From Dicyema japonicum (lineage: Eukaryota; Animalia; Dicyemida), in assembly GCA_011109175.1 (NCBI GenBank), contig RDEW01000057.1:33605-77804 (forward strand): 44,200 nucleotides of DNA, given 5' to 3'. The notes below the pieces were generated by a model. The model saw only the letters and a program-made list of their open reading frames with translations, searched no databases and was not told the DNA's origin. Positions within the stretch are counted from its first letter, which is position 1. Every line of letters starts with the position of its first letter. This document shows positions 4,209 to 38,269 of this stretch, in pieces. A program made the position numbers and the translations under genes.

Positions 4209-6409
4209 ATGATTACAAATTCTAAAAACTGGAAAAAAGTGGACAATTCAAATTTAAAAAGCAATACTTTCGATGCTGTTATAGAGATTGAGGAAAGTAA
4301 TGACTACTGTCTACTAACAACGAATAAGGTTCCAAATAATAGTATACACATAGAAATCCAGATTCACACTAGTTTGACGTTTTCAAAAAAAAGAAAGCAT
4401 GTGCAGTCACTTAAAGGAAATGGAAAATTAAAAAAGACATATAGTGAAGAAATTGAAAATACAGCAAACATTGGTTTTATTGAACCTCTTTATCCCAATT
4501 TGCCTAGATTCTGGAATTTCTGCTTGGAATGCTTTAGAAATACATCCAAAAATTATTTCTGCACTAAAAAAGCTAGAATTTTATGAACCGACTGAAATTC
4601 AATCAAAAACCATTTCTTCCGCTTTGAATTCCCAATCCGACATCATTGGATGTGCTCAAACAGTTTAATTTGAAAATAAATTCAAAGGGAAGTGGGAAAA
4701 CGTTAGCTTTTGGCATTCCGATAGTTGATTTTATTCTCAAAAATAAAATGAAATCTAATTCCAATGTTGCTTTAAATTTATTAATTTTCAGCCTCAAGCA
4801 CTTGTTTTAACCCCTACTCGAGAGCTGGCGATTCAGATACGCGAGCATATTCTGCATATTGTGAAAACTGCAGATATTAAGGTCATTATTAAACTTGTAG
4901 TTTTTAGGTTGAATGTATTGTAGGAGGAATTGCCCAAGTTAAACAGGAACGGATATTTCAATCTTGCCCTGAAATTGTAGTTGCAACCCCAGGGCGGTTA
5001 TGGCAACTTATCCAAGATGTTGATTTCATACAATTTAAACAAAGGGATTTGATTTTGCATCTAAAGTCCGAAACGTTCGATTTCTGGTGATCGACGAAGC
5101 AGATAGAATGATTGGAAAAGATTATTTCGAACATTTTTCATTCATAATTAACGACTTGAATAGGTAATTCTATATATTTCATACTTACAGTGCTCTTGGG
5201 AGATCAATGAGGCGGACATTTGTGTTTTCAGCCACAATGACCTTTGTTCACGATACAAAAAATCGTCAAAATCCAAATGGAAAAAAGCAAACTCTCAAGT
5301 CAAAACTTAGTGAGTTCAATAGTACTAACTAATAATTAGAATCCCTGGTGAGTAAGACTGGAATAAGACGAAATTATACTTTAATTGATTTATCGAATAC
5401 TTCGTTTCTTGTAAACACTCTTTACGAGCAAAAGCTGTATTGTAAACGAGAAGAGAAGGCATTTTATTTTATAAATTATAAAAGGATCATTATCTTTACT
5501 ATATATTGGAATCTCTGAAAGGGAGATCTATCGTATTCACAAACTCGAAAGATTGCACGCGCAGAATTGCTGCATTTCTTCGAATTTTATCTCCTCCTAT
5601 TACTGGAAGTTTTTCTGTTTGCATTCTACATGCCGACATGCTTCAGAAACATCGATTCCGTAACATTGAGAGATTTCGTGGTTTGTCAAGCTGAGATAGT
5701 TATTCTTCAGCTGCAAAGGGTCCCTCCGTTTTGGTCGCAACGGACGTAGCTTCACGTGGACTGGATATCGAGGATATCGAAAATATCATACACTATCAAG
5801 TATCGACTGTGACTGAAGTTATTTAATTTTAATTATTTTTAGATTTATGTTCATCGTAGTGGAAGAACGGCGAGGGCTGACAAACCTGGGTGTACTATTA
5901 CTATCGTTGGTTACGATGAGCATAAAAGATTTCTGAATATTCAACGCCAACTCAATACAGGTTTATTTTATGTTTTGATTATTAGTTTCTAATATGGCTA
6001 CCTATGAGATAAAGCTATCGTTGGTTACGATGAGCATAAAAGATTTCTGAATATTCAACGCCAACTCAATAGAGGTTTATTTTATGTTTTGATTATTAGT
6101 TTCTAATATGGCTACCTATGAGATAAAGGATTTTGATTTGCTTAAAAAGTCGAAAGAACGAGTTTCACTTGCAGTCAAGATTATGAATTTAGAACATACG
6201 TTTTCCTTATAATAACCAAGTATAGAAATGAAAAGGCAAAACAGCATCATAACTGGATTGAAAAATGTGCTCATGATGCGGAAATAGATATTATCGAGTT
6301 TATTAGTTTTTTGACTGTTAATAGTATGCCTGAAGTTAATGCTTATAAAGAGAACGGTGAAAGAGCAGATACTATCCGTATCTTGCGAACTCAACTAAGG
6401 GGACTTTGA
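4209..6409 (+). CDS. DDX24: ATP-dependent DEAD-box RNA helicase DDX24/MAK5, 13 micro-introns
   Basis: After splicing (4474-4507, 4663-4687, 4766-4791, 4882-4907, 5019-5044, 5164-5190, 5310-5339, 5459-5484, 5681-5710, 5818-5842, 5961-5985, 6200-6225, 6298-6324) the protein shows the Q motif [11 protein letters not shown]|[30 protein letters not shown]|[16 protein letters not shown] and HRSGRTAR. The tail [14 protein letters not shown] is DDX24-like. A 114-bp duplicate (6015-6128) must be removed to keep the frame. Confidence 0.9.
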
Positions 6410-7394: not shown

Positions 7395-8247
7395 ATGCCG
7401 AAAAAATTTAAAACTGAAAATACTAAAGCAGTCATAGCAAGAGAACGGAAAGCTCAGACAAAAAAGGATGCTGAAGATACACAACAAAAACAACGTAACG
7501 ACGAATTGTGGAAGGATGATGATAGATTAGTTTTAAAAAAACAAAAAAGAAATGTAAATTATTTTTTAATTATATATTCATTTAGGAAGAGAAGGAAGCC
7601 AAAAAACAAGAAAAAATAACTCGCCGAAGAGAATTGAAAGAATTTGAATTACAGGAAAACCAAGGCACAGAAGCAATAGTAGAAACTTCTTTAAAAGTTG
7701 AATCTGAATATGTTCCTCAACCGAAGCCTATTAAGGCTCCTAGCAGAATCAGTAAAGCTTTATTTCTCTATTTTAGGTGAAAATAACATTTTATTTGATG
7801 AAGAATTTTCCATTAATAATAAATCTTTGAACATGGAGGAAGTCGAGTATGAAAATGAAAATTCAAGGTAAAATTACGCCTAAAAATTTTAGAAATAAAA
7901 AAGACCAAAAAATTGATCGACATCCAGAAAAAAGAATGAAGCTTGCATTCCGTGAATTCGAGGAAGTTCGGTTACCTGAATTACGCAAAGAATTTCCAAA
8001 AATGCGATATAAACAACATTTGAAGATGATGAGAGACGAATTTGAAAAATCAGATGTTAATCCAATGAACAAGCCTCACATGTCGTATAATGCTCCTGGT
8101 ATTCCATATTTGTGCACTTTTTTTAATATTAGATGAAAGGAAAGTTAAGGTTATTGAGAAGAAATTGGAAAAGTTGAGGTAATTTTGTATTATACTGATT
8201 TGAGTTTCATCAGTTTGGAGGCAGAGTGTGAGAATAATCAGGAATGA
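7395..8247 (+). CDS. CCDC124: Coiled-coil domain-containing protein 124 (Lso2 family), 5 micro-introns
   Basis: N-terminus MPKKFKTENTKAVIARERKA..WKDDD and C-terminal DRHPEKRMKLAFREFEEVRLPELRKEFPKMR..SDVNPMN are CCDC124 signatures. The frame stays open after splicing to TGA at 8245-8247. Confidence 0.9.
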
Positions 8248-14493: not shown

Positions 14494-15311
14494 CCGTATA
14501 TTTTCGAATAAAAATCGAAATTTATTATCCTTATTAATTTTCTTCGACTCATATTCCAGTTTCCAGTTTACCTATTCAATATTAACTAAATTGTCTTTAT
14601 ATTCTCATAAAATGTTTTTCAGGAATGTTACGAGTGGCATTGGACAATACACTGCGACCCCGAATTGGGGAAATTTTTCCCCAATTTTGAGGTTTTCCCC
14701 AAAAAGAGGGTTTTCCTTAAATTTATGTCTCTCATGTTCGATATCCTACCTTAATAATATAACCAAGACGGATAACTACAATTTTTATTTTTTATTAACA
14801 AAATCAGTTAATTTTAATCGAGTGTTTTGTTTTTTCACATAGAACTCATAATATTTGCATGCCAATTTCGAACATGAAATAGCATCCAATATTGTGATTC
14901 CCTTTATTGCTTCATCTATTTGTGCTGCAGGATTTTTATCATAGATAATCGTTTTCATCATCCAGTTATTGAAATGATTCTTAAATGCCTTTATTATTTT
15001 CCTTGGTCACATGGCTGAATTAAGGAACTTGTATTTTTTGGAAAAAATATTACGTCGACATTTGAAAAAACAGCATGACAAGTTGCATTGTCAATTAACA
15101 ATGCTATTTTACTTCTTTTCCCCTCGTTAAATCGAGATAACCAATTTTCAAAAATATTTTTTGTCATCCAGGCTTTGTTGCAGGAAGCATCATATTCAAT
15201 GCCGATTTCTTTCAGATTCACACTTTTTAATACTTTTGGTGACTTCGTACGCCCAATTATAACCGGTTTATATTTTTCTCCCGTGTAACTGCAACACAAA
15301 AGAAATGTCAT
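14494..15311 (-). mobile_element. pogo/Tigger DDE transposase fragment with one terminus
   Basis: TFLLCCSYTGEKYKPVIIG..KAWMTKNIFENWL..ALLIDNATCH..FFPKNTSSLIQPCDQG. TA|CCGTATATTTTCG terminus at 14492-14506. Confidence 0.85.
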
Positions 15312-16243
15312 ATGTTCTTTTATTATTTTTTTATTTTCTAGTTTATAAAATATGTTCTTACTTTTTAAAATAATAAAAGTTCTATTTAAGTATTTTTATT
15401 ATTTATGTGTGTTATGCTAAAACTCAATTTATACTAGTTTCTATTGATATGAATAGTATTTGAGCAGATACACATATATGAAAAAATACAGTGAAGATAT
15501 CAGAAATGGAGTAAAAAAAACTTATCTATCCCCTAATACTGAAGCGACAAATCCTGATAATTTAAATGTAAATAAGATTTCTATGTTAGCTAGATAAAGA
15601 TACGCTCATTGAAACCGATTAAAGGGGAAATGCTCGAGTCCAAAGATAATTTCATTGTGCTGCCGTCTTATAAATTAACAAGATCTAAAACAGAATCAAG
15701 TAGCATTTTCTGGAACCATGATATGATAAGACACTGGTCGCAAACTGTTTTATATACTTTTTTAAATAATTTCAGGGAACAGTTTTATTGGATGGTTCTG
15801 GAAAAATTAACAATTTTGAGTGTGCTGGTAAAAAAACCGAAGAAAATGGAGTTTGTTACGAAAATAATATTTTTAGATTATTCCTGATAATTTTGATGTT
15901 AAAAATTCTAAAGTGCGCCGTTATGATAATGGACCAGACACATCTTGAATTGATGTGGGAATTGATTCCATCATTATTATTTACTAAAAATAATATTTTT
16001 AGATTATTCCTGATAATTTTGATGTTAAAAATTCTAAAGTGCGCCGTTATGATAATGGACCAGACACATCTTGAATTGATGTGGGAATTGATTCCATCAT
16101 TATTATTTACTATGTGTTAATTAATCTTTTTTAATTCTGTTTCTTTTTATAAAAATGGAAATATTAAAAAATCCATATTTCTAAATACAAAAAGTAACTT
16201 TTCTTAAAGATAAAGGCCGCACATGGTTTTTAATGATATATTT

Positions 16244-16414: not shown

Positions 16415-18190
16415 AAAAATTTATTTCGCCTTCAAAGCATTCTTCGGCAAAAACTTCGTTCACCATTTCTGTCATGTCTGTATGAATCTCTGTACTGATA
16501 TTTGATGTTCCCTCGCATCGACACTCAAAAAATTTTTCCCAACAATTTTGAATTTGCACTAAAGTTACATTCGCCCATGCCTCTGAAATTAATTTCATGA
16601 CATTTCGCAAATTGAGACATTTTATTGATTCCAAAAAATGGTCTGTATTTTCACAAAAGCAAACGAATTCAATAAGTAAATTGTTGTAATTTGNAGAAGC
16701 CATTTGTAATTTTCCCTTTTTCGATTATCAGCTTTTAGAACGGTCTCAAGAGCGAATTTGATCGTAGGATGGGTAGAGATTCTTTTGTAACAGTCAAGAA
16801 ATTCCTCGGAGATCTTGTTTTCAAAATAAGACTTAGAGACTAAGAGGTTGGGATGCTTCAAAAAATAATACTCTAAGAGGTTGGGATGCTTTTTGACGAA
16901 CTCTTTGACCTTTAGAGTTTATTGAGACATTTTATTGATTCCAAAAAATGGTCTGTATTTTCACAAAGGCAAACGAATTCAATAAGTAAATTGCTGTAAT
17001 TTGTTTTGAATCCTTTAATTATCCCCATATTCAATGGCTGGATTAATGATGTTGTATTTTTAGGTAAATAAAAAAATTCAATGTTTGAACAATCAACTAA
17101 TCGACGTGGGCTACAACATTAATATTTTTCTTTCTTCTGAAAGCATTTTTGCATTTATTTTAAAAATCCAGGTTTTAAAAATTTCAATCGTCATCCACGA
17201 ATTTTTAGAGGAGGAGTNAACATTAATATTTTTCTTTCTTCTGAAAGCATTTTTGCATTTATTTTAAAAATCCAGGTTTTAAAAATTTCAATCGTCATCC
17301 ACGAATTTTTAGAGGAGGAGTACATGAGAGGAGGAGTACATTCTTTGTGCTGCTTAAAACCGAACGAATTTTAGCCACGCTGCACAAATGACTTAGTTGG
17401 TGTATATTTGAAATAGAGTGCTGTTTCTTCGCAGTTAAAAATATTTTCTTTACCATAAAGGACAACTTTAGCGTCCAATTCTTAAAAAAATCAGCAAGCT
17501 TGGATGAATCTGCAGATCCCTTTTCACCACACAATGTTTTGTATTGTAAATTGTGTCGCTTCTTGAATCTTTGAAGCCAACCATTAGACGATTTAAAATC
17601 ATTCATTGATAATTTAGATGCGACCATGGATCCAATTTTCTTAATCGTAGGACCAGACAGAGGAACTTTTTCAAGTCTCAATTTTTCAAAAATTTCGAAA
17701 ACTTTGAGATCAATATTTTTCAGCTTTTCAGAATCACTTTTATGTTCGAAAGAATTGAAATAAGTTCCATTATCAAGAAAAGGAGCATCCTTTTTTATGC
17801 GTGAGATTGTAGCCTTGCTAACTTTGAAGATGTCCGCAATTCTACGCTCTGAAAGATCCTTTTGTTTGATATATTGAGATATTTCGAGTTTTTTTTGTAA
17901 GCAATTTTCATTTTAGGCATCTATTCAACATAGAACAGTGGAGAATACTTTAACAATGATGACAACGTGACAAGGAAAAATTATCTTTAATTAAACAAAA
18001 AAATATATAAATAAAAAATTAATTATATTAAAAACTATTTAGTTTGTAGAAATTTTTAGGTGGCTCATAACGAGGTCTATTTTTAATTGATTTTTACAAA
18101 TTCCCTAGGAAAAATGCAGTTTTAAAAATCGTGGCTCAAGAATTGAGTTTGTATCATAAAGCGAGTATGGATCATACCCGAGGTCTGGCT
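16415..18190 (-). mobile_element. Degenerate pogo/Tigger element (CENP-B HTH plus DDE)
   Basis: HTH SERRIADIFKVSKATISRIKK, FKSSNGWLQRFKKRHNLQYKTLCGE, TTSLIQPLNMGIIK and ISEAWANVTLVQIQNCW. Frameshifted and locally duplicated at N joins. Confidence 0.85.
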
Positions 18191-18989: not shown

Positions 18990-20210
18990 GGACCTCTATG
19001 GTAAATAGTGATTAGGTAGTTTAAAATTTTGTTCCAATTTTATTACACACTGGAAAAATTGTTGCCAGATTCGCATAAAGTAACCAGGTCACCGCTACTT
19101 AAAAATCAAATAAAACTGGATTTTTTAATTGATGATATAAATTAACATGATTCAATATTTTCAGACTTTTTGTTGATTATAGAGAGTCAGTAGCCTGAAA
19201 ATGCACCTCCAGACCATAGTTAGTAAAATCTTTGAGTACTAATTTGTGGGGATCTAAATTCATCAGAATGAACTTCCAGAAACCCTCCAATCACAATAAT
19301 GTAGTATAATAATTTTTAAAAATCACAAGAATACATTCAGTACTTGAAGGCACAATTTTTGCTATAAAAATAGAAAAAACCCCTGCTTGTAAAGATTTTT
19401 TCCAATCATTTAAATATTCTACGTAACGAAAGCAAGAGGAAACGTAAAAGCATGTATTCCCTGCGGAGCCGTAAAAACTCGAAATTTAGATACCAACAAC
19501 TAAATTTTCCCTCTTTTCAAGCTTTTTAAATAATTTTTTTTAATAAATGATCAGCATTTAAGAATAATTAAGATCCATATAAAAACAAAAAATCTGATTT
19601 TTCATAATACATCCAGAAAGAAATATTAGTTATTTTTCTATTTTATTATTGAGTTCAGATATTAAAATAATTAGTTTATCAGCCAAAACGTCTTCCAAAA
19701 TCATTCCGTTAGTATCAAACCATTCCGAATAGCTTATAGTATTACTTACTTCATTCCACAATAACTTATGTTTATAACGTCCTTGAATTTTGATCAGAAA
19801 AATTGAAGAATACCTAAAATATTCCGTGAATAAAACTCGAAAAATATAACTTGAATTTAAATTTAATAATATTTGTAATAAAAATAAATACTTTTGAGAT
19901 TTAATAGAAACTCTGTACTGGATATCAGGAAGATGGCAAGCACAGTCTGCGCTTGTTCCTTCGTAAACAATGTCGCCGATAATAAAATAATAAAGATAAT
20001 AATAAACAGGACAAAAAATGTAATATCTAAAATGAATATTTAATCATAAAATATTACATTGAAACACAAGTTATAAGCAAATTTTTGGATTGTGGAAAAG
20101 GATATGAATAATCATAAACAGTGGCAACGGTAATAGAAAAAACCATTATAAAATCAACTAATAATTTCACATCAAACAAAAAATGATTTTGTTTAGCATT
20201 AAAATGGCGA
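18990..20210 (-). pseudogene. Unidentified micro-intron-containing gene remnant
   Basis: Exon-like blocks (DIVYEGTSADCACHLPDIQYRVS; IVIGGFLEVHSDEFRSPQISTQRF) bounded by GT/AG micro-introns, with stops. The resemblance to FN3 is weak. Confidence 0.25.
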
Positions 20211-21372: not shown

Positions 21373-22292
21373 ATACTGTTAGACAAGGCTGTATTTTATC
21401 TCCCTTTCTATTTAATATTTACACTGAGAAAATTATGGAGGAGTTAAATTGTGAAAATAATATCGGAATCAAAATTGGTGGCCTAAACATAAATAATCTT
21501 CGTTATGCGGACGACACCACGTTGCTTTCGGAAACAGAGGATGGCCTGAGACAGTTAGTATTGAGAGTAAAAGAGAAAAGTGCCTCTTTGGTCTTTTTCT
21601 AAATGTGAAAAAACCAAAATAATGGCAACTTCACTATCTGGAAAAATGAGAGTTATCGTCAACAACGAAGAAATAGAATGTGCCGAAAGCAATATCTTTC
21701 TGGGTAGTCTGATAACTAGAGATGGTGGTTGTGTCTCGGAAATCAATAGACGGATGGCCATGTGCAGAAGTACGATGATAAAACTGAATCGGATCTGGAG
21801 TAGCAAGGATGTCTGTCTCAGGACAAAGATAAGACTTGTTAACGCGATTGTGTTCCCAGTCTTCCTCTATGGTTGTGAATCGTGGACATTGTCCAAAGCA
21901 GACACCAGAAGAGTGGATTCATTAGAATTATGGTGCTGGCGTAAACTTTTGAAAGTAAATTGGTACGACAAAGTATCAAATGACAAAGTTCTTGTAAAAA
22001 TTAAACCATCGTTGTCGCTTGTATCGAAAATATGGAAACAACAATTATCTTACTTGGGACACATACTTCGGGGGGACGGCATAGAAAAGATGATCTTGCT
22101 GTCTTCGTTTACCGGAAAGAGAAAGCAAGGAAGGCCAAAATTAAGTTGGTCTTCGCAAGTCGTTAAAATGGCCGGACATGATTTTCTCGAGATTGTAGAG
22201 CTCGTTAAGGACAGGGGTTCGTGGAGGAATTTGATCAACAGAATCGCCAATGGCCGGAATCGGCTGAATACGGCTAACTTAACTTAACTTAA
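21373..22292 (+). mobile_element. 5'-truncated RTE (BovB-like) LINE
   Basis: VRQGCILSPFLFNIY, NNLRYADDTTLL, VFPVFLYGCESWTL, ELWCWRKLL, YLGHILR and GKRKQGRP. Frameshifts near 21590-21610. 3' (TAACT)n tail. Possible target-site duplication TTAAAGTC/TTAAGGTC. Confidence 0.92.
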
Positions 22293-23193
22293 GGTCGTCT
22301 ATTCTTGAGAAGAGTTTAACGAAATTTAGATTTTTGTGGCGAAGTTGGAAAATTCTCTTTTCCTGTCCTGAGAATCCCAGCATACTTTAGTTCATTTACC
22401 AAGTTTCTCTTTTTATGAAGAAAACCGCATTGTTTTCTGGTCATCTGATTATGAAATTTCTGGTCTAAGAATTATTCTTTATTTAAACAGCTCCAGCTTC
22501 AGATTAAACCAACTTATAAGATATCTTTAGAAGTCGTTAAGAATGTATAGATAATAGGTAAAACCTTCACCTTAGCATTGTGAATTAATCTTAATTCGCT
22601 GACTAGAATGCCATTTTTTAAATTTTTAAAGTTTTTAGATTATCTATTGCCAAAAACTCTTTGACATAATAATCTGAATTGAGTAGTTTTTAATCTTTTA
22701 GAATTGCTTCATTCTAAATCAACGTTTTAAATGTAAATTCCTCTCACAATCTCATTATGTTCAAATGCAATCTGAAATGAGCATTCTATTAAATCTAATT
22801 GCCATATGGTCCATCGAGTTAGTTGAAAATTCCTCAATAAATAATAGTTGATTTCTCGGAATTCTTCTCTAAACCACACAGTTCAACTAAATGTTCACAT
22901 CGTCCATCATAAGTGTCAGAATAGAGCGATTTTTTCATTCACACACATTTTAACTAGTTTATATAAAATTGGCATGCAATTTAATCACTCTATAATCATT
23001 CGGATCAAGAAAAGTTCGATTTTATTCGGATTAGATATGCAATTCCCATATAAGACTATTTTTGTAAATGATTAATACCATTAATAATAATTCTGATCTG
23101 TTGGAATACAAAATTTTGATAAAAGTTTAGCTTTTGGATGAATTAATTATTCAGCTCCATGCTCATGAAATTTATCCGACTGTGACATAGTAC

Positions 23194-25132
23194 TGTCACA
23201 GTCCGATAAATGGACACTTGGCTTAAAAATGTATAAAAAATATATAAATAGCTATTGTATACGTCAATATTAAGAATTAGTTAAATATTTTAGAGAAATG
23301 TTATACTTTTTAATTTATAAAAAAAGCGTGTAACTATACGTATTGTGAAGCTCAGCAAAGAAATTCTTGAAAAAATCAAAAAAATAACTGAAAACCAAGA
23401 AGAAAACACATTAGACGACAATCCAAACAGAAAACAACGATTTAGGCTAAAGCAGCTTGCGAAAAACATATGCTTTGAAAATGGAAATGTATTCTTTATT
23501 AAGAATTCAACCAAATTGCGATTTTTCGCAGAGGATGACATTGAGTTGAAGCTTAAATGCATTGAGGTATCGGATTAATTAACATTAATTAGGCGGAACA
23601 TAATTATAATCATTTTGGTAGAGATCGACTGTTCAGTAAGCTAAAGACTAAGTATTATGGTTTGACTAGAGATGAAATTGCAGGAGTAATTAATAAATGT
23701 GTTCATTGCCAGGTAAATATTAATTCTATAATGTTAGGCTAAGAAATTAATGGCGACTAAGCCACAAATAACCCCAATCATCGCTCGTGGGCCTAGAGAT
23801 AGATATATAGCAGATCTCATTGATCTTCGCAGATATTCTGAAATTAACGATAAATTCTCTTGGGTATTTTAGATGAGATATTTAATATAAAGATTCTTGT
23901 AATCGTTGATTCCTTCTCGAAATATGTAGTTGTCGAATTATCAAAGTCGAAATCTGCGGTAGAAATAGCTAACCTATTCCAAAATATTTTTTATTACATC
24001 GGACCACCAATCATCCTCCAAACAGACAATGGGAAAGAATTCTGTAATTCGTTAATTGACGAAGTCTGTGAAAAATATTCGATCAAGCATGTGCGTGGTA
24101 GGGCACGAGCGCCCTGGATACAAGGTCAAGTAGAGAGGTTGCCTGATGGTTTTAATTTTTTAAGGTTCAACCAAAGCATAAAACGTTGGATATCTTCAGC
24201 AAGTGCCTCTCGTGGATATTTTGGGCGATATTGTACCATAATCAAAGACATTGTTTATGATTACAATAACACAATACATTCCACAACCGGAAAAGTCCCG
24301 TTCTACTTGTTTATGGGTGCTCAAAATCCGAATCCAATAACGGAGTCGGAAATGGAACAATTATTATCGGGAGATGTCGACAGTGCAATCGTAGATGCAC
24401 GTGAAGAAGCGTATTCAAAACTTCTTATCGCTGGAGATAAAATGATAGAAAGGAGAAGATGGAAATATGATGAAGATTCCATAAAAGTCGGAGCTACAGT
24501 ATTACTAAGGTAGTAATTTTTTAATACATTTCCAAGACAAGACAATGATGCCAATATTCGAAGGTTCCCATTATACGATGGATTATCAACCAACCAATAT
24601 GTTGTGGTAGATCAACAAAATGACATGTACTTGATCGAAGATGAGAATGGTGAAAAAACTAACGTACATATATCAAGAATTACAAAAATTGACTAACGAT
24701 TTTGTTTAAAATTTTTCATCTAAATTTTTTTAAGATTTGGAAGCCCGCATAGGGTTAGTTGTTTAAGATTTGAGTTAGGGTTAGGAGCAGACGAAGCTTT
24801 TATATGGAATCTAGAATTTTTTTCTATTTTCTAATGTAAATTTTAATTATTATCTCAATTTTAACCGATTTTTTTACAATTTTAAATCATTATTTTTCAA
24901 TGGTTAACCAAAAATCATATAGACTTCTCGATAATCAAAAAACACCGTTGATGTTAGTGTGATGTTGGTTTTTCCGTAATTCTGCTTCTTTCAACATGTA
25001 CCAAAATTATTAAAAATGGGTTTAAAGTGGGACTTGAAAAAAATTAACATGTATTTTGTATGGCCATATTTCTCAAAAATGAAATTTTGAAATTGTCCAT
25101 TTATTCGCGTGTCCATTTATCCGACTGTGACA
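23194..25132 (+). mobile_element. Ginger-like (retroviral-type integrase) DNA transposon with 24-bp terminal inverted repeats
   Basis: Left TGTCACAGTCCGATAAATGGACAC (23194-23217) versus the reverse complement of 25109-25132, TGTCACAGTCGGATAAATGGACAC (one mismatch). TGT..ACA ends enclose an integrase-only gene with no RT, protease or LTR. Confidence 0.85.
23327..24696 (+). CDS. HHCC-DDE integrase/transposase with 5 micro-introns (start codon unresolved)
   Basis: Introns 23567-23592, 23713-23737, 23864-23892, 24138-24164 and 24510-24536 give a stop-free frame: EHNYNHFGRD..CVHCQ (HHCC), RYIADLID, LQTDNGKEF, QGQVER|FNQ, YNNTIHSTTGKVPF and an SH3-like tail ending VHISRITKID*. Confidence 0.88.
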
Positions 25133-25139
25133 TAGTATG

Positions 25140-25613
25140 ACCCTTTTTAAAAAATATATTCATTTAATTTAGGCAAATATCATATGGGATTCGTATCGTG
25201 CCCATATTTCTTTAAAAGTCAAAGAGCATTGTCGAAAAAGGAATATCCAACTTATTGTTATCCCTGGTGGATTGACTCCCTATTTACAGGCTGGTGTCAT
25301 AAAGATATTTAAGGAGTTTAGGGATAAAATTTCCCTTATTATTAATGAATGGGAAAACTCCTCAGATATTGAATATATTAGTGGTGATTGTAGTAAACGG
25401 TTAGGTTAAATCTTCTTGGAATACTTTAAGCAATGCTACAATTTTGAATTATATTAATTCAGCAGGGTTCTTAAACTCGACTGAAAATTGGCATATTATT
25501 AACTAACTTAACTGTCCCAAACTGGGATCATCAAAAATAAATATAATGAAAAATTGACTGTTTTCAAAAACTGCCCCTAAAAGCGGGGGTGCCCCAAACC
25601 GGGGCCGTACTGT
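25140..25613 (+). mobile_element. pogo DDE 3' remnant with right terminus
   Basis: QLIVIPGGLTPYLQAG..IFKEFRDKI. Ends CCCCAAACCGGGGCCGTACTG-TA. Confidence 0.65.
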
Positions 25614-27089: not shown

Positions 27090-28870
27090 TCAATAATCAG
27101 TTGCTTTTCGTCGGAGAACATTCAACATTCGCATCCATATAAAAGTCCTGGTTCGATCACACTCTTTTAGATATAAACAAACGTGTCGGTATTCAAGTCG
27201 AAGTGAATCAGGCTCTTTAGGATTCTTGTTGCCTTCTTTTTCTTCAATACGCATCCATTGATCCTTTTTCCATGGTTGTCGAAAACCATTCCAAGATAAC
27301 GGACTCTGAGTCCGAACCAACTCTGATATTAGACTATCAGCCTGTCTCTCACTTATTTTCTTCGATATGTGCGTAACTGTACATTTTTCCGACGCCATAG
27401 AGAGACCCTTCCTTGTACACCAGTTTTGATTCTCGAAACTATACCATTTAACTTTCAAAATGAGAATAGCCACTTTCAAAATGAAATAGTCACTTTCAAA
27501 ATGAGAATAACCACTTTCAAAATGAAATAGTCACTTTCAAAATGAGAATAGTCACTTTCAAAATGGAATAGTCACTTTCAATATGAGAATAGTCACTTTC
27601 AAAATGAGAATAGTCACTTTCAATAGTTTGAGAAGCCTGCGTTGTGAATCCACCAATCTTCAAGACATGTCCGTTATGAGCACATCATCCGCATAAATGA
27701 TAAGATTGCCATTCTGGTGTTCTGGCTTTGGAATATCCGCCATGTAGATGTTGAATAATAGTGGACTAAGAGGATATCCTTGTGGAACTTCTCTTTTCAA
27801 CATCAAGACTTTTGAAACATTATTTCCGCATCGGAAGTAGGATTTTCTATTTTCTATGAAACTTCTGAGCCAGTTGAAACATGTTTCGTCGATTTTTGTG
27901 TGGGCAATTTGGACAAAAAGTTCCAAATGCCACACACTGTCAAACGCCATTGAAATATCCAGACAAACGGTGATAAGAGTCACATCACTTGTTTAGAATT
28001 GTTCAATTTCTTCGTGAACCTAGAAAAGGCAGTCGCCACGTGATCGTACACGCCGAAAACCCCATTGTTGATCGCAAAGAAATTTTATGCTCTCAACGTG
28101 GGCGGATGATTTTCTGAACACGAATTTCTCCATTATCTTGACAGTGAGCAGATAAGGCTAATAAATCTATAGTTAAAAGCTCGGTCTTTGCTTTTCTTCG
28201 ATTTTGGTATCATCCGTACTTCTGACCGTCTCCAGGCTGATGGTAGATTTTCATTTAAAATCTCAATTATTAAAAGAAGCAGTCTAGCTGTTGCATTCTT
28301 GTATACCGCCATTGGGATCCGGCCAAAACCAGGTGCGTTGTTTTTGCAGGTATTTATCATATCAGATAATTCCTTTATAGTGATCCCGTCATATTTATTT
28401 GACAAGTATTTCATAAAATCTTCCAGTCGCATTCTTTGTCTTCAAAAGTATCGATGGATACTATATTTCTTGGGTCGACCTCTTGGACTTTTTCTAACTG
28501 TTCTCGAAATAGAGATGGGGCATCCTCTTTTGCCATCGACTGACCATCCTCATTCTTTAGAGAAATCTCTTCTCCTTTAGAATCCTTATCATTTAGACGA
28601 TTGTTGGCCTTCCAAAAATTTGGATTCTTTTTATTCTGCTTCATACATTTGCCCCTCCAAAATTTATTCTCTTCTTCTTTAGGTTGTGTGAAAATGATCT
28701 TCTGAATATTATAAATTCTGATTCTAAGTTCTTGACGATCCAAGGGATTGACACATCTTCGCAATTTCTTGCATAATCTTTGTTTTTTCTCAATTTGAGC
28801 GTTCCTGTTATTTGGTCCTTTTTTAAGGATAACTTTTGGCGAATACATTTCAAGAAAAACCAAAATTAGT
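27090..28870 (-). mobile_element. Degenerate Jockey/L2/I-type LINE ORF2 (RT)
   Basis: KNNAPGFGRI, LPSAWRRSEVRMIPK, NYRFISL, QWGFR, LDISMAFDSVWH, VPQGYPLSPLLFNIYMAD and YADD, with many frameshifts. Clade not resolved. Confidence 0.88.
27451..27624. repeat. Minisatellite, about 8.4 units of ACTTTCAAAATG(AG)AATAGTC (21/20 bp)
   Basis: Units start at 27451, 27472, 27492, 27513, 27533, 27554, 27574, 27595 and 27616. Confidence 0.95.
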
Positions 28871-30129: not shown

Positions 30130-31375
30130 TTATTGAGAGGTGCATTGAGTAGTATGTGACTGACCATGAAAATGGCTTCTTTCTTCATCCTCTTGTTCAT
30201 CATCAGACTGAGTTCCTCCAGTAAATCGAGTTTGTTCAACAAAGCTATCCATTTTGACAAGAACAGCATCAGATTGATTACATTCCTTTTCAGGCCCAAA
30301 GTTTCTATTCAAATGTTTTTTCAAAATCTAAAAATAAGAATCTCAAAATAAAACTAAAAGGTCCGATTCTGATGCAAAGTTGTCAGGAGGATACTCCACT
30401 GTGAAACAAATATAAAGATTGCCTCGAGGTCCGTCATTGGGAGGCATTCCTTCATTCTTCACTATCCGAATATCGTCTACACTACATATACCAATAAAAC
30501 CATTTTTTATTATCTTGTTGACATGCAAATAGAAACACGTACCATCCAAACGTTGGACGGGAAATTTAGCCCCACAGATGGCTTCCGACATTATCACAGT
30601 TTTGTTCATTATCAAATCACCACGTTCGCATCTGAATGTATCATGTGGTTTCTGATCAACTTTAATTACAATATCTCCAGCCTCCATTCCCGGCTATAAA
30701 TAGTGAAACCCCAAACCAACCAATTGGTCGCCTTCTCCTCTCAAAGTAATACACGAGTCTTGACAGGATCCGGGTGGGAAGGTCACTTCCACCGTATTGC
30801 AGGATGCAATTACTTTATTTCCCTCACATTCCGAACACCGGTCAGAATAGTCAACCGACTCCCCTTAAAAAAATTATTAGTAATGAAAATTATTTAAGTT
30901 TTGGATAAATGGTACAATCGAATATTTATACCTTGTCCTCCACAGTCATCACATTGAGCTTGAACCTGAGTTCTTAGTCCGAGACCAATTTGTTGGACAC
31001 GAATGACTCTGCCTTTTCCTCTACAGGTAGAGCAGGAATAATTTCGACCAGATTTACTCCCAGAACTTAATAATGTAATGATTATTCTTACCCACGGCAT
31101 GTTTTACAAGTAACTTTCTTTTTAATCATAAGTTTTGTTTTTTTGCCTTTGTAGCAATCCTCTAAAGACAGACTTAAGGAAATAAAGCTCATTTGGGGGT
31201 TACCCGAATGGTATATATGTCATCTCAGATTTACGAGATGACCTGCTTCTTCTTGAATTTCCTTGACGACCAAGAAAACTCTCAAATATTCCTTCACCAA
31301 AACCATCCCCAAAAACTAAGAAAATGTTATTAAGACATTACAGTCATCAGATGAAGTAAAAAATCTGTCGACCAT
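30130..31375 (-). CDS. DnaJ subfamily A (type I)-like protein without a J-domain
   Basis: The spliced frame is open: G/F region, LSLEDCYKG, four zinc-finger repeats (CKTCRGSG, CSTCRGKG, CDDCGGQG, CSECEGNK), GEGDQL|PGMEAGDIV, EAICG, NEGMP, GNLYI and C-terminal CaaX CTSQ*. Confidence 0.88.
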
Positions 31376-32819: not shown

Positions 32820-33467
32820 CAGCGGTTCTCAACATTTGGGTTGTGGAAGCCAAATCAATATTTAAATTTCCTTACCGGGGCCGCCATAATTCTTAACAAT
32901 AATTTGGGCGGCGGCCAGCATTCTCCCTCTCTTACGGATCGCTAAGGAGTTCGCAACCTGTTTGCAGATCATGGAATTAAACTTTTATTTCCTTTAAATT
33001 AAAGTATTATTTGTTTATTAAGTTATTGAAATCAAGAATAATTAAGGTTGAAGATGTTCGTAGCAGCTGATTCAAGTGATTATCTGTGAGTTTGTTGCGA
33101 TATTTATTTTTTATTCGAATCATTTTACTAAATATTGATTCGCATACATATGTAGATCCAAACATTGATATATTCATATATGCATTGTATGTTATATTTT
33201 CGAACTTTTCTTGAGAAAGTAATTCGTAAAAATTACATTTACATAAATGCACCCCAAAACGTGCTTCAAATTGATTAATTAAATCAGAAATTATAGATAT
33301 GTATTTTTCATAGTCAGCGCCTTCATTGTTTTCAGATAGTGAATAAAATCTCCGTCTTTAAGTAAAGTCATCCATAAATATAATTTTTCGATAAACGAGG
33401 AAATATATCCATATAAATGATAACAAATATATCCAAAAGAGCTCTTCAAGAGTTGCAACGTGTTACA

Positions 33468-35224
33468 TCTTAATAATAAAATGGTATGTGTGTGTGTCTG
33501 TCTGTCTGTGTGTCTGTCTGTCTGTGTGTCTGTGTACACCAACTTCAAATTGGCAAAATACAGATAAATTGTCAGAATCCTTTCCTTTTATAATTAGCCA
33601 ATAATGGGGAACAAAAAATGATGAGGTCCCTAAAACCTTCCCGCCAAGAAAATTAAAAAAATTTTCTGCATTTTGGTTAAAATGAACAGCAACGATGTCC
33701 TCGACTTACATGATGAGGTCCCTAAAACCTTCCCCAAAAAAATTAAAAAAACATTTTCTGCATTTTGGTTAAAATGAACAACAACGATGTCCTCGACTTA
33801 CATGATGCAGTCCCTAAAACCTTCCAGCCAAAAAAAATTAAAAAAACATTTTCTGCATTTTGATTAAAATGAACAACAAGCATGTCCCCGACTCACATGT
33901 AGGTCCTTTAAAATTAAATGCCAATATATCATTATCGACCATGAATCAAGATTAAAGCTATTATCATATTTGACCTTGCCAGAGTGTGCAATTAATAGAT
34001 TGCACGACCTTGAATAGACTGTGTAATTAACAGATTTGACAACCACTTTAACACTTATTAACCACATTAGCACAATCATTAACACAATTGACCACCAATT
34101 GACAGCGAAATTAGAAGAATTTTCGTAGAAATATTAACTATTTAATTAAGTTTTTCGTAAAGATACAAATTATTTTCGGTATGCCTCTCTTCCTAATCTT
34201 TTTTATTATTCAAAAATAATTTTTTCAATAGATAACCGATGGAAGGAATACGAAGTTGAAACGAAGTCGAATTTATTTTCGGTATGCCTCTCTTCCTATT
34301 CTTTTTTATTATTCAAAAATAATTTTTTCAATAGATAACCGAGGGAAGGAAAACGAAGTTGAAGAACAGAAAGCTCAGCATAAGGTAATTAATGATGTTG
34401 CCTGCCTCTTTTTTGCGTGCCGCTTTTTTTGCTGCTGCAAATCCGCCTGCTGCTTCTTTTCCTGCTCTTAATGTGTAAGTTATTTATTTATTTAATTTGT
34501 CTGTTTGATTTTGTGTGTTTGATTGGTCTGTTTGATTGTGTTTGTGTTGTGCTACCTTCAAAAGCTCCTCCACTGCTCCAAAGAAACCAAAAAAGACCAG
34601 AAAGAAAATCCTCAAAATCAAAAAAAACACACAAAAATAAAAAAAAAAGCACAAAATAAAAAAAACTAAAAAAAATAAATTCCTTAGATCCCTTTGGAAT
34701 GCCTAATCATTTTTTAAAATTAAAGATAGGCGTTCCAGTGGTTTTATTACCAAATCTTGCGCCACCTAAATTATGCAACGGAACGAGGTTAGTTACCAAA
34801 AATTTGATGGCTACGTAATAGAAGCGACGATATTAATAGGTAAGTATAGAGGTGAGGATGCACTACAAATTCCGATGATTACCGTTTAGATTTAAAAGAC
34901 TGCAATTTGCGTTGAGGATGAGTTTTGCGATGACAATAAACAAGGCCCAGGGACAGTCATTAAAGGTAGTTGGCTTATTTTTAGAAAAGCGAGTGCTTTT
35001 CACATGGACAGCTGTATGTGGATGCTCAAGGGTAGGCAGAAGAGAAAATTTATTCATATATGCCAAGGAAGGACGGACGACAAACATCGTTTATCAACAG
35101 GCGTTAGAATAGGGTTACATCAAACCAGGTCGTTTTATATATCTACATAAACTTATAGTTGTTTGATGAAACAGGCCCTCCGCAGGAGCTAGGTCGCGGT
35201 GAGCGAAGCGAGCTGCCGAGCTAG
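33468..35224 (+). mobile_element. Non-autonomous Helitron retaining the Pif1 helicase C-terminus
   Basis: A|TC 5' end, (GT)/(GTCT) microsatellite at 33485-33535, and a 3' GCGAAGC-centred hairpin followed by CTAG|T. Helicase motifs LKLKIGVPV, KLCNGTRL, FAMTINKAQGQSL, HGQLYVGCSRV and TNIVY (34680-35112, frameshifted). Confidence 0.92.
33619..33905. repeat. About 3 copies of a ~92-bp tandem repeat inside the Helitron
   Basis: Recurrent TGATGAGGTCCCTAAAACCTTCC..ATTTTCTGCATTTTGGTTAAAATGAACA..TGTCCTCGACTTACA. Confidence 0.85.
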
Positions 35225-35843: not shown

Positions 35844-37570
35844 TCATAGGTGCTGCTGCTGAGTTAAATTTCTTTAAATAAAATTTGAATTTAAAATTAC
35901 CGTTCTAAATTATTCGGTTTACGCGATTTTCTGTTTTTTCTTATTATAAAGACGACAATGACACAGATTATCAAAAGTGTAATACCAATAGGTATGAGAA
36001 AATACATTTTAGATCTTTTAACACTTAGTGCGTTCAAATTTGTATTTTTTCTACCCGAAGTGAAACGATTTACAAAATAATAATAAATATTTTACATTTT
36101 GAAATGTGGAATTTTTTTGTTGAATCAGAAAGTGAGCCGTCTAAAAAAGTGATTTGGAAAATAATATTTATAAAGAAATATTTTTACCAATTGTAGCCGG
36201 AGATTTTGTCAGAACATGTGAGCTCTTATGGACTAAAAGGTATTATTCAGTAGATATTTCACTCTCTAAAGTAGTCGGAAATGTTGTCGTGATATTTGTG
36301 CTCTTATGGACTAAAAAGCGATTATTCAGTAGATAATTTACTCTCTAAAGTAGTCGGAGATTTTGTCGTGATATTTGAGCTCTTATGGACTAAAAAGCGA
36401 TTATTCAGTAGATAATTTACTCTCTAAAGTAGTCGGAGATTTTGTCGTGATATTTGAGCTCTTATGGACTAAAAAGCGATTATTCAGTAGATAATTTACT
36501 CTCTAAAGTAGTCGGAGATTTTGTCGTGATATTTGAGCTCTTATGGACTAAAAAGCGATTATTCAGTAGATAATTTACTCTCTAAAGTAGTCGGAGATTT
36601 TGTCGTGATATTTGAGCTCTTATGGACTAAAAAGCGATTATTGAGTAGATAATTTACTCTCTAAAGTAGTCGGAGATTTTGTCGTGATATTTGAGCTCTT
36701 ATGGACTAAAAAGCGATTATTCAGTAGATAATTTACTCTCTAAAGTAGTCAGAGACATTGTTGATTGCTTCTCTGTTGGTGTTATTCGACTTTCAAAAGA
36801 AGTGATAAGGTTGCTAAAAATTTTAATTTTTAATTACTGTCATTTTTAAGTGGTCCATATTTCGAAGATAATTAAACTCATTTTTTGACAATATTCGATT
36901 ACTTAGATAAGAATGACATAGAATTACCACAAGGTATTATTCATAACATAATTTTTATTGGTCGAATTAGGCAAACCAAGCAAGTGTAATATATTATATA
37001 GAATTGCTCCATCATATTTCTAGATAAATTTAATTTCTAATACATTTTTATCGTTGTATTTTACGTATATTACATTAATCTCATTCAAGGTTTGTATATT
37101 ATTCCCACCTCTGTTTTCTTTACTTTAAAAAATGAAAAGTAATAGAAAGAACTCTATTTTGATAGTCAAGTAATTTAATTCTTTTGAATTCTCATCAACT
37201 TCGGTTATTTCAATTACATCACAAAGAACCTATTATATATCCAAAAATTATTACTGTTTTAATCATTAAACTATCGTTTGTCTATAATTATTAGTTATAA
37301 AGCAAACAGGGACTTCTCCGAAGGAAATTTTTAGGTTCCATGGATAGCCTATGCATACATTTCACATTAAATTTTAAATTACCGAATGATTGAAAAGCTA
37401 ACCCTCCTAATAATAAATAGATATATACCATTTCTTTTTCACGCTAAAGTCAAATATAAATGTTTCATGCGGAAATTTCGAATACATTATGACGATTATC
37501 TCAGAAATATGAATAATTCATTCATTCTTGACATTATTATAAGAATCAATTCACCATATAAAGCCCACAT
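35844..37570 (-). pseudogene. Single-pass membrane mucin-like gene (5' limit approximate; at least two apparent lesions)
   Basis: Spliced Ser/Thr/Pro stalk, transmembrane segment MYFLIPIGITLLIICVIVVFII, basic stop-transfer RKNRKSRK and tail NLTQQQHL*. It needs a 1-nt correction near 36795 and a GT..AA intron at about 36070-36095. Confidence 0.6.
36188..36752 (-). repeat. 79-bp tandem repeat, about 7 units, each a 48-nt exon plus a 31-nt intron
   Basis: Period 79 (same register at 36351, 36430, 36509, 36588, 36667, 36746). Minus-strand intron GTAAATTATCTACTGAATAATCGCTTTTTAG. Confidence 0.92.
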
Positions 37571-37622: not shown

Positions 37623-37750
37623 CAGTCTGTTCAAAAAAAACGTGACCACTTGAAAATGTATGTTTTTTTAATCTGTGTGACTTATTTTTGAAAATTTCCA
37701 AAGAATACTAAATTTAAAATCTTTTTATTTACACAATTCAATTTTTATTT
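37623..37750 (+). mobile_element. Tc1/mariner-like terminal remnant
   Basis: TA|CAGTCTGTTCAAAAAAAACG terminus. No partner end found. Confidence 0.35.
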
Positions 37751-37754
37751 TTGT

Positions 37755-38077
37755 CACGGTCGTCTTGGAACAACATCGTCTAGACCTTTCCTGACAAATG
37801 TGGGAACTCCTCAAGGCGACTCTCTCTCGCCTCTGCTGTTTGTGATCTACCTCGAGGCTGCCTTGCGAGAGTTGAGAAGCCTATATGAGGGGTCAATCAC
37901 CGAAGTAATTTACGCCGATGACGTCGACTTTGTGTCGGCCGACAAATCCGCGCTCCTCAAACTATTGGAGATTGCACCGGGAAAACTCGGGGAATGGTTT
38001 CTAACCATGAACACGGACAAGACTGACGTTGTTAATGTATCACGTTCGGATACCCAACTTATGGAAACATGGAGACT
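37755..38077 (+). mobile_element. Non-LTR reverse transcriptase fragment
   Basis: VGTPQGDSLSPLLFVIYLEAAL..IYADDVDF..LTMNTDKT. Ends at an N join. Confidence 0.85.
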
Positions 38078-38269
38078 NTTGTAACTTGGAACTACCGACT
38101 GAAAATCCCAAAGATTGGGAATCATCCCTGGTTGAGCAATACCAAACAGTCTCAGGTTCTTAAGATAATGATAGTGACTCAAATTCCGATGGATGGTCGG
38201 AGAGAAGGTCGCTTGTCTCAGAGCAGTGTCGGGTCAAATCCTCGGTTAATATCAGCCTTACCTTACCAT

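What the first reader, a model, noticed from the sequence alone, without database searches (positions are those of the whole stretch)
23170..23217. Right-end/left-end junction: the transposon is preceded by an exact copy of its own right end
Seen: 23170-23192 (ATTTATCCGACTGTGACATAGTA) is identical to 25115-25137. The left boundary therefore reads right TIR-TAGTAC-left TIR, a near-perfect 42-bp palindrome. No 4-bp duplication flanks TGT..ACA (GTAC vs TAGT). The ends can alternatively be read as asymmetric TA|CTGTCACA..TGTGACATAG|TA. Inference: this could be the footprint of a circular intermediate with abutted ends (as in IS3-family copy-out/paste-in), self-targeted head-to-tail insertion, or an end structure unlike described Gingers.
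Basis: partly seen in the sequence, partly recalled or inferred. Interest (0 to 1): 0.8.

Follow-up and report, generated by a model that had tools for sequence, protein, structure and literature searches.

The report
One-off end-to-end scar, Ginger-type transposon
A real 18-base scrap of a transposon's own end sits six bases in front of one copy of an otherwise ordinary integrase-type DNA transposon; it is likely the leftover of a second copy that landed beside the first and was mostly deleted, and it is probably not a new end structure or a sign of routine circle formation.

Summary
The 23-bp repeat (23170-23192 = 25115-25137) and the 42-bp palindrome are exact as described. The junction is not a collapse artefact: contigs of two runs of one other sample bridge it on the same left flank, with one changed spacer base and perfect 18-bp arms. 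It was seen at this locus only and is polymorphic: in both samples laid, the flank also runs on from 23169 into other DNA. Other copies have other flanks at TGT and ACA, so the ends are plain TGT..ACA and the asymmetric TA reading fails. The 18 bp are common to both TIRs, so 'right end' is not established. Flanks of seven ends point weakly to a TAnTA-like target and a 5-bp duplication; the spacer is that 5-mer (or its reverse complement) plus one base. Best reading: a self-targeted local insertion made a tandem, and a deletion removed all but 18 bp of the neighbour plus host DNA (0.55). Repair-templated copying (0.2) and an IS3-like end-to-flank transfer (0.1) stay open. The element is a 1.9-kb Ginger-type transposon with five 25-29-nt introns, inserted in a pogo fragment.

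The parts
23061..23169 (.). Left host flank; breakpoint at 23169|23170
   Evidence: X1 rec 1 and X5 rec 13 run to exactly 23169 and continue with nearly the same other sequence in two samples; X4 rec 17 also stops at 23169 with 68 further letters
23170..23187 (+). 18-bp TIR fragment facing the left end (right end in direct, or left end in inverted orientation)
   Evidence: bridged with no difference in X2 rec 10 and X3 rec 11
23188..23193 (.). 6-bp spacer TAGTAC: the 5-bp right-flank target copy plus one base; the other sample has C at 23190, making the 5-mer the reverse complement of the target
23194..25132 (+). Ginger-type DNA transposon, 1939 bp, TGT..ACA
   Evidence: other flanks at both termini; higher depth over the element than over its flanks in X1 and X5 (depth is not a copy number)
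23194..23217 (+). Left TIR, 24 bp, 1 mismatch to the right TIR; other copies carry a further 16-bp subterminal unit
   Evidence: loose ends before 23206 in X1 and X5
23336..24696 (+). Transposase gene, about 410 aa after removing five GT-AG introns (23567-23592, 23713-23737, 23864-23892, 24138-24164, 24510-24536); H2C2 finger and DD(35)E; start uncertain; splicing inferred
25094..25132 (-). Right TIR (25109-25132) with the subterminal repeat unit inside it
25133..25137 (.). Host target sequence TAGTA, likely the 5-bp target-site duplication
   Evidence: X2 rec 16 and X4 rec 24 begin at 25132; X2 rec 16 has 171 other letters before it
25173..25612 (+). 3' half of a pogo-like transposon (DDE_1 from profile position 80 of 177; one terminus at 25589-25612) into which the element inserted; its 5' half and partner terminus were not found in the window
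   Evidence: (E 1.4e-4, 21.9 bits against a cut-off of 22)

Best explanation
The junction is real, was seen at this one locus and is polymorphic, and it is likely the leftover of a single self-targeted insertion: the transposase probably joined this copy's left end six bases outside another end of the same element at a preferred target, and a deletion then likely removed all but 18 bp of that neighbour together with host DNA back to 23169. Shown: repeat, palindrome, presence in an independent sample, alternative allele at 23169, TGT..ACA termini. Inferred: 5-bp target duplication, the tandem precursor, the deletion, and the linkage of the left junction to the pogo flank on the right. The neighbour's orientation (head-to-tail dimer, or head-to-head from the sister chromatid) is not resolved.
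For: (1) X2 rec 10 and X3 rec 11 bridge 23101/23061-23270 without gaps on the same flank. (2) The join is exactly at the intact copy's terminal TGT, as in a normal integration, and the fragment is followed by a normal-looking target (TA[G/C]TA), matching the outward pattern T-A-n-n-A-T of 7 other ends (position 2 A 7 of 7, 5 A 7 of 7, 6 T 7 of 7, 1 T 5 of 7). (3) The spacer 5-mer is the right-flank 5-mer in the window and its reverse complement in the other sample. (4) The allele without the junction does not join 23169 to 25133 (no such joint among the 15 listed of 24; other loose letters), and the pogo on the right lacks its 5' half: DNA is missing, as a deletion predicts. (5) Double insertion at one target with the TSD in between, and deletions near the junction, are documented for P and hobo (bioRxiv 10.1101/158386, passages).
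Against: The spacer is 6 bp but the likely TSD is 5 bp, so one extra base (or a 6-bp stagger plus a later T-to-C change) must be assumed. The TSD length is weak: symmetry scores were n=2 0.96, n=5 0.92, n=3 0.90, n=7 0.86, n=4 0.83, n=6 0.74 on 7 ends, two of them consensus of several contigs, one assuming a changed terminal base, one read from an alignment end. The window's flank has 6 private changes against 1 (plus 1 ambiguous) for the other sample, so the inverted 5-mer may be ancestral and the perfect 23-bp direct match partly luck. No laid contig links left junction and right flank; the assembly shows short-read artefacts elsewhere, so the two flanks could come from different copies. Bridging evidence is one independent sample (two runs), contigs only.
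Confidence: 0.55

Rival explanations
1. Host repair scar: after a break at the left end, the resected flank was rejoined with a 23-nt insertion templated from the element's own left or right junction plus one filler base (synthesis-dependent end joining). No second copy ever sat there.
For: [quoted passage not shown] In the other sample the arms are a perfect inverted repeat and the 5-mer is the inverted target.
Against: No microhomology at 23169|23170 (flank continues CC in the other allele). A simple snap-back should keep the original target copy next to TGT, which neither allele has. The join falls exactly on the transposon's terminal base, which repair need not respect.
Confidence: 0.2
2. 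IS3-like asymmetric transfer as the regular pathway: one end attacks a fixed few bases outside the other end (figure-eight, then circle); a circle recombined with the resident copy or an aborted figure-eight was healed here.
For: Spacer is a copy of flank next to the recipient end and is one base longer than the likely TSD; in ISCth4 such spacers are 6-8 bp and read out the flank (PMC7780238, passages). Excision chemistry of Ginger1 is stated to be unknown (PMC2836005, passages). Closest solved relatives are foamy-virus and Ty3 integrases.
Against: Normal paste-in consumes the junction, so a retained one needs extra events. No high-depth or second-flank junction among the records shown. None of 3 complete distant relatives with TGT..ACA ends has a third end copy. 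The predicted product is the same as for double insertion.
Confidence: 0.1
3. Assembly artefact: the assembler pasted the right end in front of the left end.
For: The window has six near-exact two-copy duplications of 83-173 bp with 0-2 mismatches, three with an N between the copies; X1 shows no cover of 23172-23187.
Against: Independent contigs from a sample about 6% different in the flank bridge the junction and carry their own spacer base.
Confidence: 0.05
4. A new asymmetric end structure with TA duplication (TA|CTGT..ACATAG|TA), or a 23-bp TSD as in IS481EU.
For: Both parses are formally possible in the window; TA directly flanks 5 of 7 ends; IS481EU has TSDs of about 25 bp (PMC10045372, passages).
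Against: Other copies diverge right at TGT and ACA (loose ends at 25132, 25134, 23189, 23193, 23195); TAGTA belongs to the pogo flank (X2 rec 16 begins at 25132); a 23-bp TSD would leave the element without a right terminus and the allele without the element does not contain those 23 bp after 23169; the protein has an H2C2 finger, which IS481EU lacks.
Confidence: 0.03

Closest known systems
Ginger2/Tdd DNA transposons (Bao et al. 2010, PMC2836005)
   Same: TGTNR..ACA ends, H2C2 finger plus DD(35)E integrase-like transposase, AT-rich target, no OTU/Ulp1 extension, no literal GPY/F; named relatives are annotated KRAB-A domain-containing protein 2-like, a gene derived from GINGER2 (PMC3575427)
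   Different: Shorter (1.9 kb; TIR 24-39 bp against about 50-180 bp); target pattern T-A-n-n-A-T rather than RTATAY; relatives show a YPYY-like motif by eye, which Ginger2 is said to lack; five 25-29-nt introns; not placed on a tree with reference Gingers
Tandem dimers by double insertion (P, hobo; bioRxiv 10.1101/158386)
   Same: Two ends facing each other across a copy of a preferred target, with deletion near the junction
   Different: Spacer is one base longer than the likely TSD; almost the whole neighbour and host DNA are gone; orientation unknown
IS3/IS256-type copy-out/paste-in junctions (PMC7780238)
   Same: Abutted TIRs separated by a few bases copied from the flank of one end
   Different: Here chromosomal, seen on one flank only, with only 18 bp of one end; no circle or figure-eight shown
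SD-MMEJ templated insertions (PMC2943611)
   Same: [quoted passage not shown]
   Different: No primer repeat or microhomology could be identified; join is exactly at the transposon end

Membership tests
Ginger2/Tdd | TGTNR termini with TIRs | tested here: met
   TGTCA..TGACA; TIR 24 bp (39 bp in other copies), shorter than the 50-180 bp described (paper)
Ginger2/Tdd | H2C2 zinc finger plus DDE integrase core | tested here: met
   zf-H2C2 26.9 bits and rve 45.4 bits, both above cut-off; D2-E spacing 35; triad invariant or nearly so in A1
Ginger2/Tdd | 4-bp (Ginger2) or 5-bp (Tdd) TSD, AT-rich target | tested here: inconclusive
   No clean TSD at this copy; 7 outward flanks fit 5 bp or TA about equally; distant relatives gave 5 bp (L013) and 4 bp (L078; L035 with only 4 flank bases)
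Ginger2/Tdd | Lacks GPY/F and YPYY motifs | tested here: inconclusive
   No GPY/GPF in the two exons scanned or in the last exon as printed; a Y/F-P..F..Y pattern is visible by eye upstream of the finger in relatives, degenerate here
Ginger2/Tdd | Phylogenetic placement in the Ginger2 clade | not testable with these tools
Ginger1 | CCGG/CCGT 4-bp TSD | tested here: not met
   All 7 outward flanks are AT-rich, none CCGG/CCGT
Ginger1 | GPY/F motif and OTU or Ulp1 C-terminal domain | tested here: not met
   Protein ends at about 410 aa; no such Pfam hit in the 413-aa relative P0001 or the exons scanned
IS481EU | No HHCC finger; TSD about 4, 15 or 25 bp | tested here: not met
   H2C2 finger present; the 23-bp repeat is TIR sequence, absent from the other allele
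Copy-out/paste-in (IS3-like) pathway | Free circles with abutted TIR junction | not testable with these tools
   Only contigs were available; no raw reads
Copy-out/paste-in (IS3-like) pathway | Recurrent junctions with spacer copied from one flank | tested here: inconclusive
   One junction on one flank; none other among records shown, but tables were cut and contigs drop rare forms
Double-insertion tandem dimer | Spacer equals one TSD | tested here: inconclusive
   Spacer = likely 5-bp TSD plus one base, or 6 bp with one mismatch

The most novel reading that the evidence does not exclude
The junction is a fossil of IS3-like asymmetric strand transfer by a eukaryotic integrase-type transposase: one end attacks six bases outside the other end, so Ginger-type elements leave their donor by a figure-eight or circle step rather than by cut-and-paste.
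Probability: 0.1. Interest if true: 0.75.

Novelty: new member of a known kind. Interest (0 to 1): 0.25.

Why it matters
As it stands it is a one-locus rearrangement scar of a kind known from other DNA transposons, on a compact Ginger-type element with tiny introns whose closest relatives found are 50-64% identical. It would matter if the same end-to-end junction recurred: how integrase-like Ginger transposases excise is stated as unknown for Ginger1 (PMC2836005), and a recurrent flank-copied spacer would link them mechanistically to bacterial IS3/IS481 elements and give a direct PCR test.

Tried and rejected
No whole genome is held for this window, so copies in the same assembly could not be compared. 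TIR pattern in metagenome contigs: 0 matches. No RNA holder listed, so introns and expression are untested. Related loci (80 metagenome, 15 viral) were only 23-39% identical; 85 of 95 were scanned for TIRs, 9 gave an inverted repeat above the score cut, 3 had TGT..ACA ends that could be read. The sequence that follows 23169 in the other allele was not found in the window (one 18-nt motif, up to 4 mismatches). The 5' half and partner terminus of the right-flank pogo were not found in the window. The protein atlas gave no result. Earlier-findings look-ups were empty. Literature searches for Ginger or Tdd circles listed no paper that reports them by title or abstract; only PMC9587614 and PMC7780238 were opened, the library lacks most subscription papers, and no supplements were read. 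Rejected: LTR retrotransposon remnant (TIRs, introns, no reverse transcriptase inside the 1939 bp); 23-bp TSD; TA-flanked asymmetric ends; 4-bp TSD.

Full report
Observation. 23170-23192 equals 25115-25137 over exactly 23 bp; chance is negligible. The left boundary is an 18+18-bp palindrome around TAGTAC with one mismatch. No 4-bp duplication flanks TGT..ACA; 6 bp gives one mismatch, and 5 bp is exact if the C at 23193 is skipped. Only three TIR-like places exist in the window: 23170-23187, 23194-23217 and 25109-25132.

The element. 23194-25132 is 1939 bp with 24-bp TIRs. Removing five GT-AG introns of 25-29 nt gives an open frame of about 410 aa (splicing inferred, no RNA). It has an H2C2 finger and an rve core above Pfam cut-offs and DD(35)E. 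The closest full-length relative is 50% identical over the core exon region, and named ones are annotated KRAB-A domain-containing protein 2-like; 5696 representatives match at E<=0.001, 5 at 1e-30. The closest solved structures are foamy-virus and Ty3 integrases. The codon that aligns with the relative's first Met is not ATG, so the start is uncertain. This works like a Ginger transposon (PMC2836005, passages); Ginger1 fails on TSD and C-terminal domains, Ginger2/Tdd fits but TSD, YPYY and tree placement are open.

Is the junction real? The assembly has short-read artefacts: six two-copy duplications of 83-173 bp with 0-2 mismatches, three with an N between. No genome was held, so I used public runs: 8 of 11 listed hold part of the stretch, best share 0.53. 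I laid five runs of two samples, all contigs. X2 rec 10 and X3 rec 11 (sample S1) cross the junction without gaps on the same flank. Within 23170-23217 they differ only at 23190 (G>C) and 23204 (C>G), which makes the arms perfect. S1 differs from the window at 7-8 of about 110 flank bases, so it is unlikely to be the window's source. Against: the deep run X1 of the same sample shows no cover at 23172-23187; the tool notes that filters leave holes, and assemblers tend to drop short low-depth links into high-depth repeats (my knowledge).

Is it general? In X1 (S1) and X5 (S2) the flank runs to exactly 23169 and then continues with nearly the same other sequence, so an allele without the junction exists in both samples. 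Of 26 records laid on 23060-23270, the two that bridge the junction have this flank; 8 pieces and 2 loose ends were not shown. Other left ends have other flanks (X1 rec 2 = X3 rec 12; X5 recs 15, 16), and other right ends diverge at 25132 and 25134. X2 rec 16 and X4 rec 24 start at 25132, X2 rec 16 with 171 other letters before, so TAGTA is host sequence; it lies at the start of the 3' half of a pogo-like transposase. The termini are therefore TGT..ACA, and the asymmetric TA reading and a 23-bp TSD are rejected. Other copies also carry a 16-bp subterminal unit at the left end that matches the right end. Since left ends with G at 23204 exist, the 18-bp piece may be a right end in direct or a left end in inverted orientation.

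Target and spacer. Seven outward flanks read T-A-n-n-A-T. Symmetry scores do not separate a TA from a 5-bp duplication (0.96, 0.92) but disfavour 6 bp (0.74); 2 of 7 ends lack TA, which favours 5 bp. These data are thin: two flanks are consensus of several contigs, one assumes a changed terminal base, one is read from an alignment end. Distant relatives (25-30% identical) gave TATTA 5 bp (L013), TGGT 4 bp (L078) and AATT (L035, only 4 flank bases), none with a third end copy. The spacer is the 5-mer TAGTA plus C in the window and its reverse complement TACTA plus C in S1. The window has 6 private flank changes against 1 (plus 1 ambiguous) for S1 and 3 for S2, so the S1 form may be older and the perfect 23-bp direct repeat partly a later coincidence. 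One S2 copy also matches the window's right flank to 25138 and then diverges (X5 rec 32), which shows that the target preference alone can repeat this motif.

Mechanism. The join lies exactly on the intact copy's terminal base, and the fragment has a normal target outside it. The simplest reading is that two transposase-made ends came to face each other at one preferred site (double or local insertion; head-to-tail, or head-to-head via the sister chromatid), and that a deletion removed all but 18 bp of the neighbour plus host DNA. DNA is indeed missing: no joint 23169 to 25133 was listed (15 of 24 joints shown) and the pogo lacks its 5' half in the window, although a misjoin of two loci through the repeat would look the same. 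Tandem dimers separated by a TSD, often with deletions near the junction, are described for P and hobo (bioRxiv 10.1101/158386, passages). The unexplained point is the sixth spacer base. Rivals: repair-templated insertion (PMC2943611, passages), and IS3-like end-to-flank transfer, whose spacers copy the flank (PMC7780238, passages; also invoked for KolobokP, PMC9587614, passages). The last gives the same sequence as a double insertion and cannot be excluded from one junction, but normal paste-in destroys the junction and nothing here shows recurrence.

Papers seen: passages of PMC2836005, PMC10045372, 10.1101/158386, PMC7780238, PMC2943611, PMC9587614; first third of PMC3575427; search listings only for the rest. 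No supplements were read; TSD tables there could bear on the family's duplication length. Searches listed no report of Ginger or Tdd circles.

Verdict. Observation confirmed; interpretation partly supported. A real, polymorphic, apparently single-locus scar on a new member of a known transposon kind. Interest 0.25; the copy-out reading has about 0.1 probability and would deserve 0.75.

Noticed in passing
window 1512-1857, 2014-2320, 5901-6128, 15861-16112, 17115-17321, 16611-17003: Two-copy duplications of 83-173 bp with 0-2 mismatches, three with an N between the copies: likely contig-overlap artefacts of a short-read assembly.
   Followed up: partly
window 23567-24536: Five predicted introns of 25-29 nt in the transposase gene; the host seems to be a eukaryote with very short introns. 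No RNA check.
   Followed up: partly
window 23194-23425 and 24918-25071: The window's copy matches the main family of sample S1 exactly in the middle but differs at many sites in both outer parts, and lacks a 16-bp subterminal unit at the left end: a mosaic or separate subfamily.
   Followed up: no
P0002, P0014 and cluster members: The closest named relatives are annotated in an octopus assembly; whether they belong to the octopus or to a co-sequenced organism was not tested.
   Followed up: no
window 14997-15395, 17298-17912 (minus); 21571-22287; 27663-27992; 33010-33357; 37692-38081: Other mobile-element pieces: pogo-like DDE_1 and HTH, a retroposon-like 3' fragment (by eye), two RVT_1 fragments and a hAT dimerisation domain.
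   Followed up: no
window 7831-8133, 19633-20043, 30346-30693: Host gene pieces: Ccdc124, SPC25 (below cut-off) and DnaJ_C.
   Followed up: no
window 36193-36755; 27451-27623; 33618-33906: Tandem arrays: 79 bp x 7.1, 21/41 bp x 8.4/4.2, 92 bp x 3.1.
   Followed up: no
L013:2111-5012, L078:842-3603, L035:5-5059: Complete Ginger-like elements in metagenome contigs with TGT..ACA ends and 5-bp, 4-bp and at least 4-bp duplications.
   Followed up: partly
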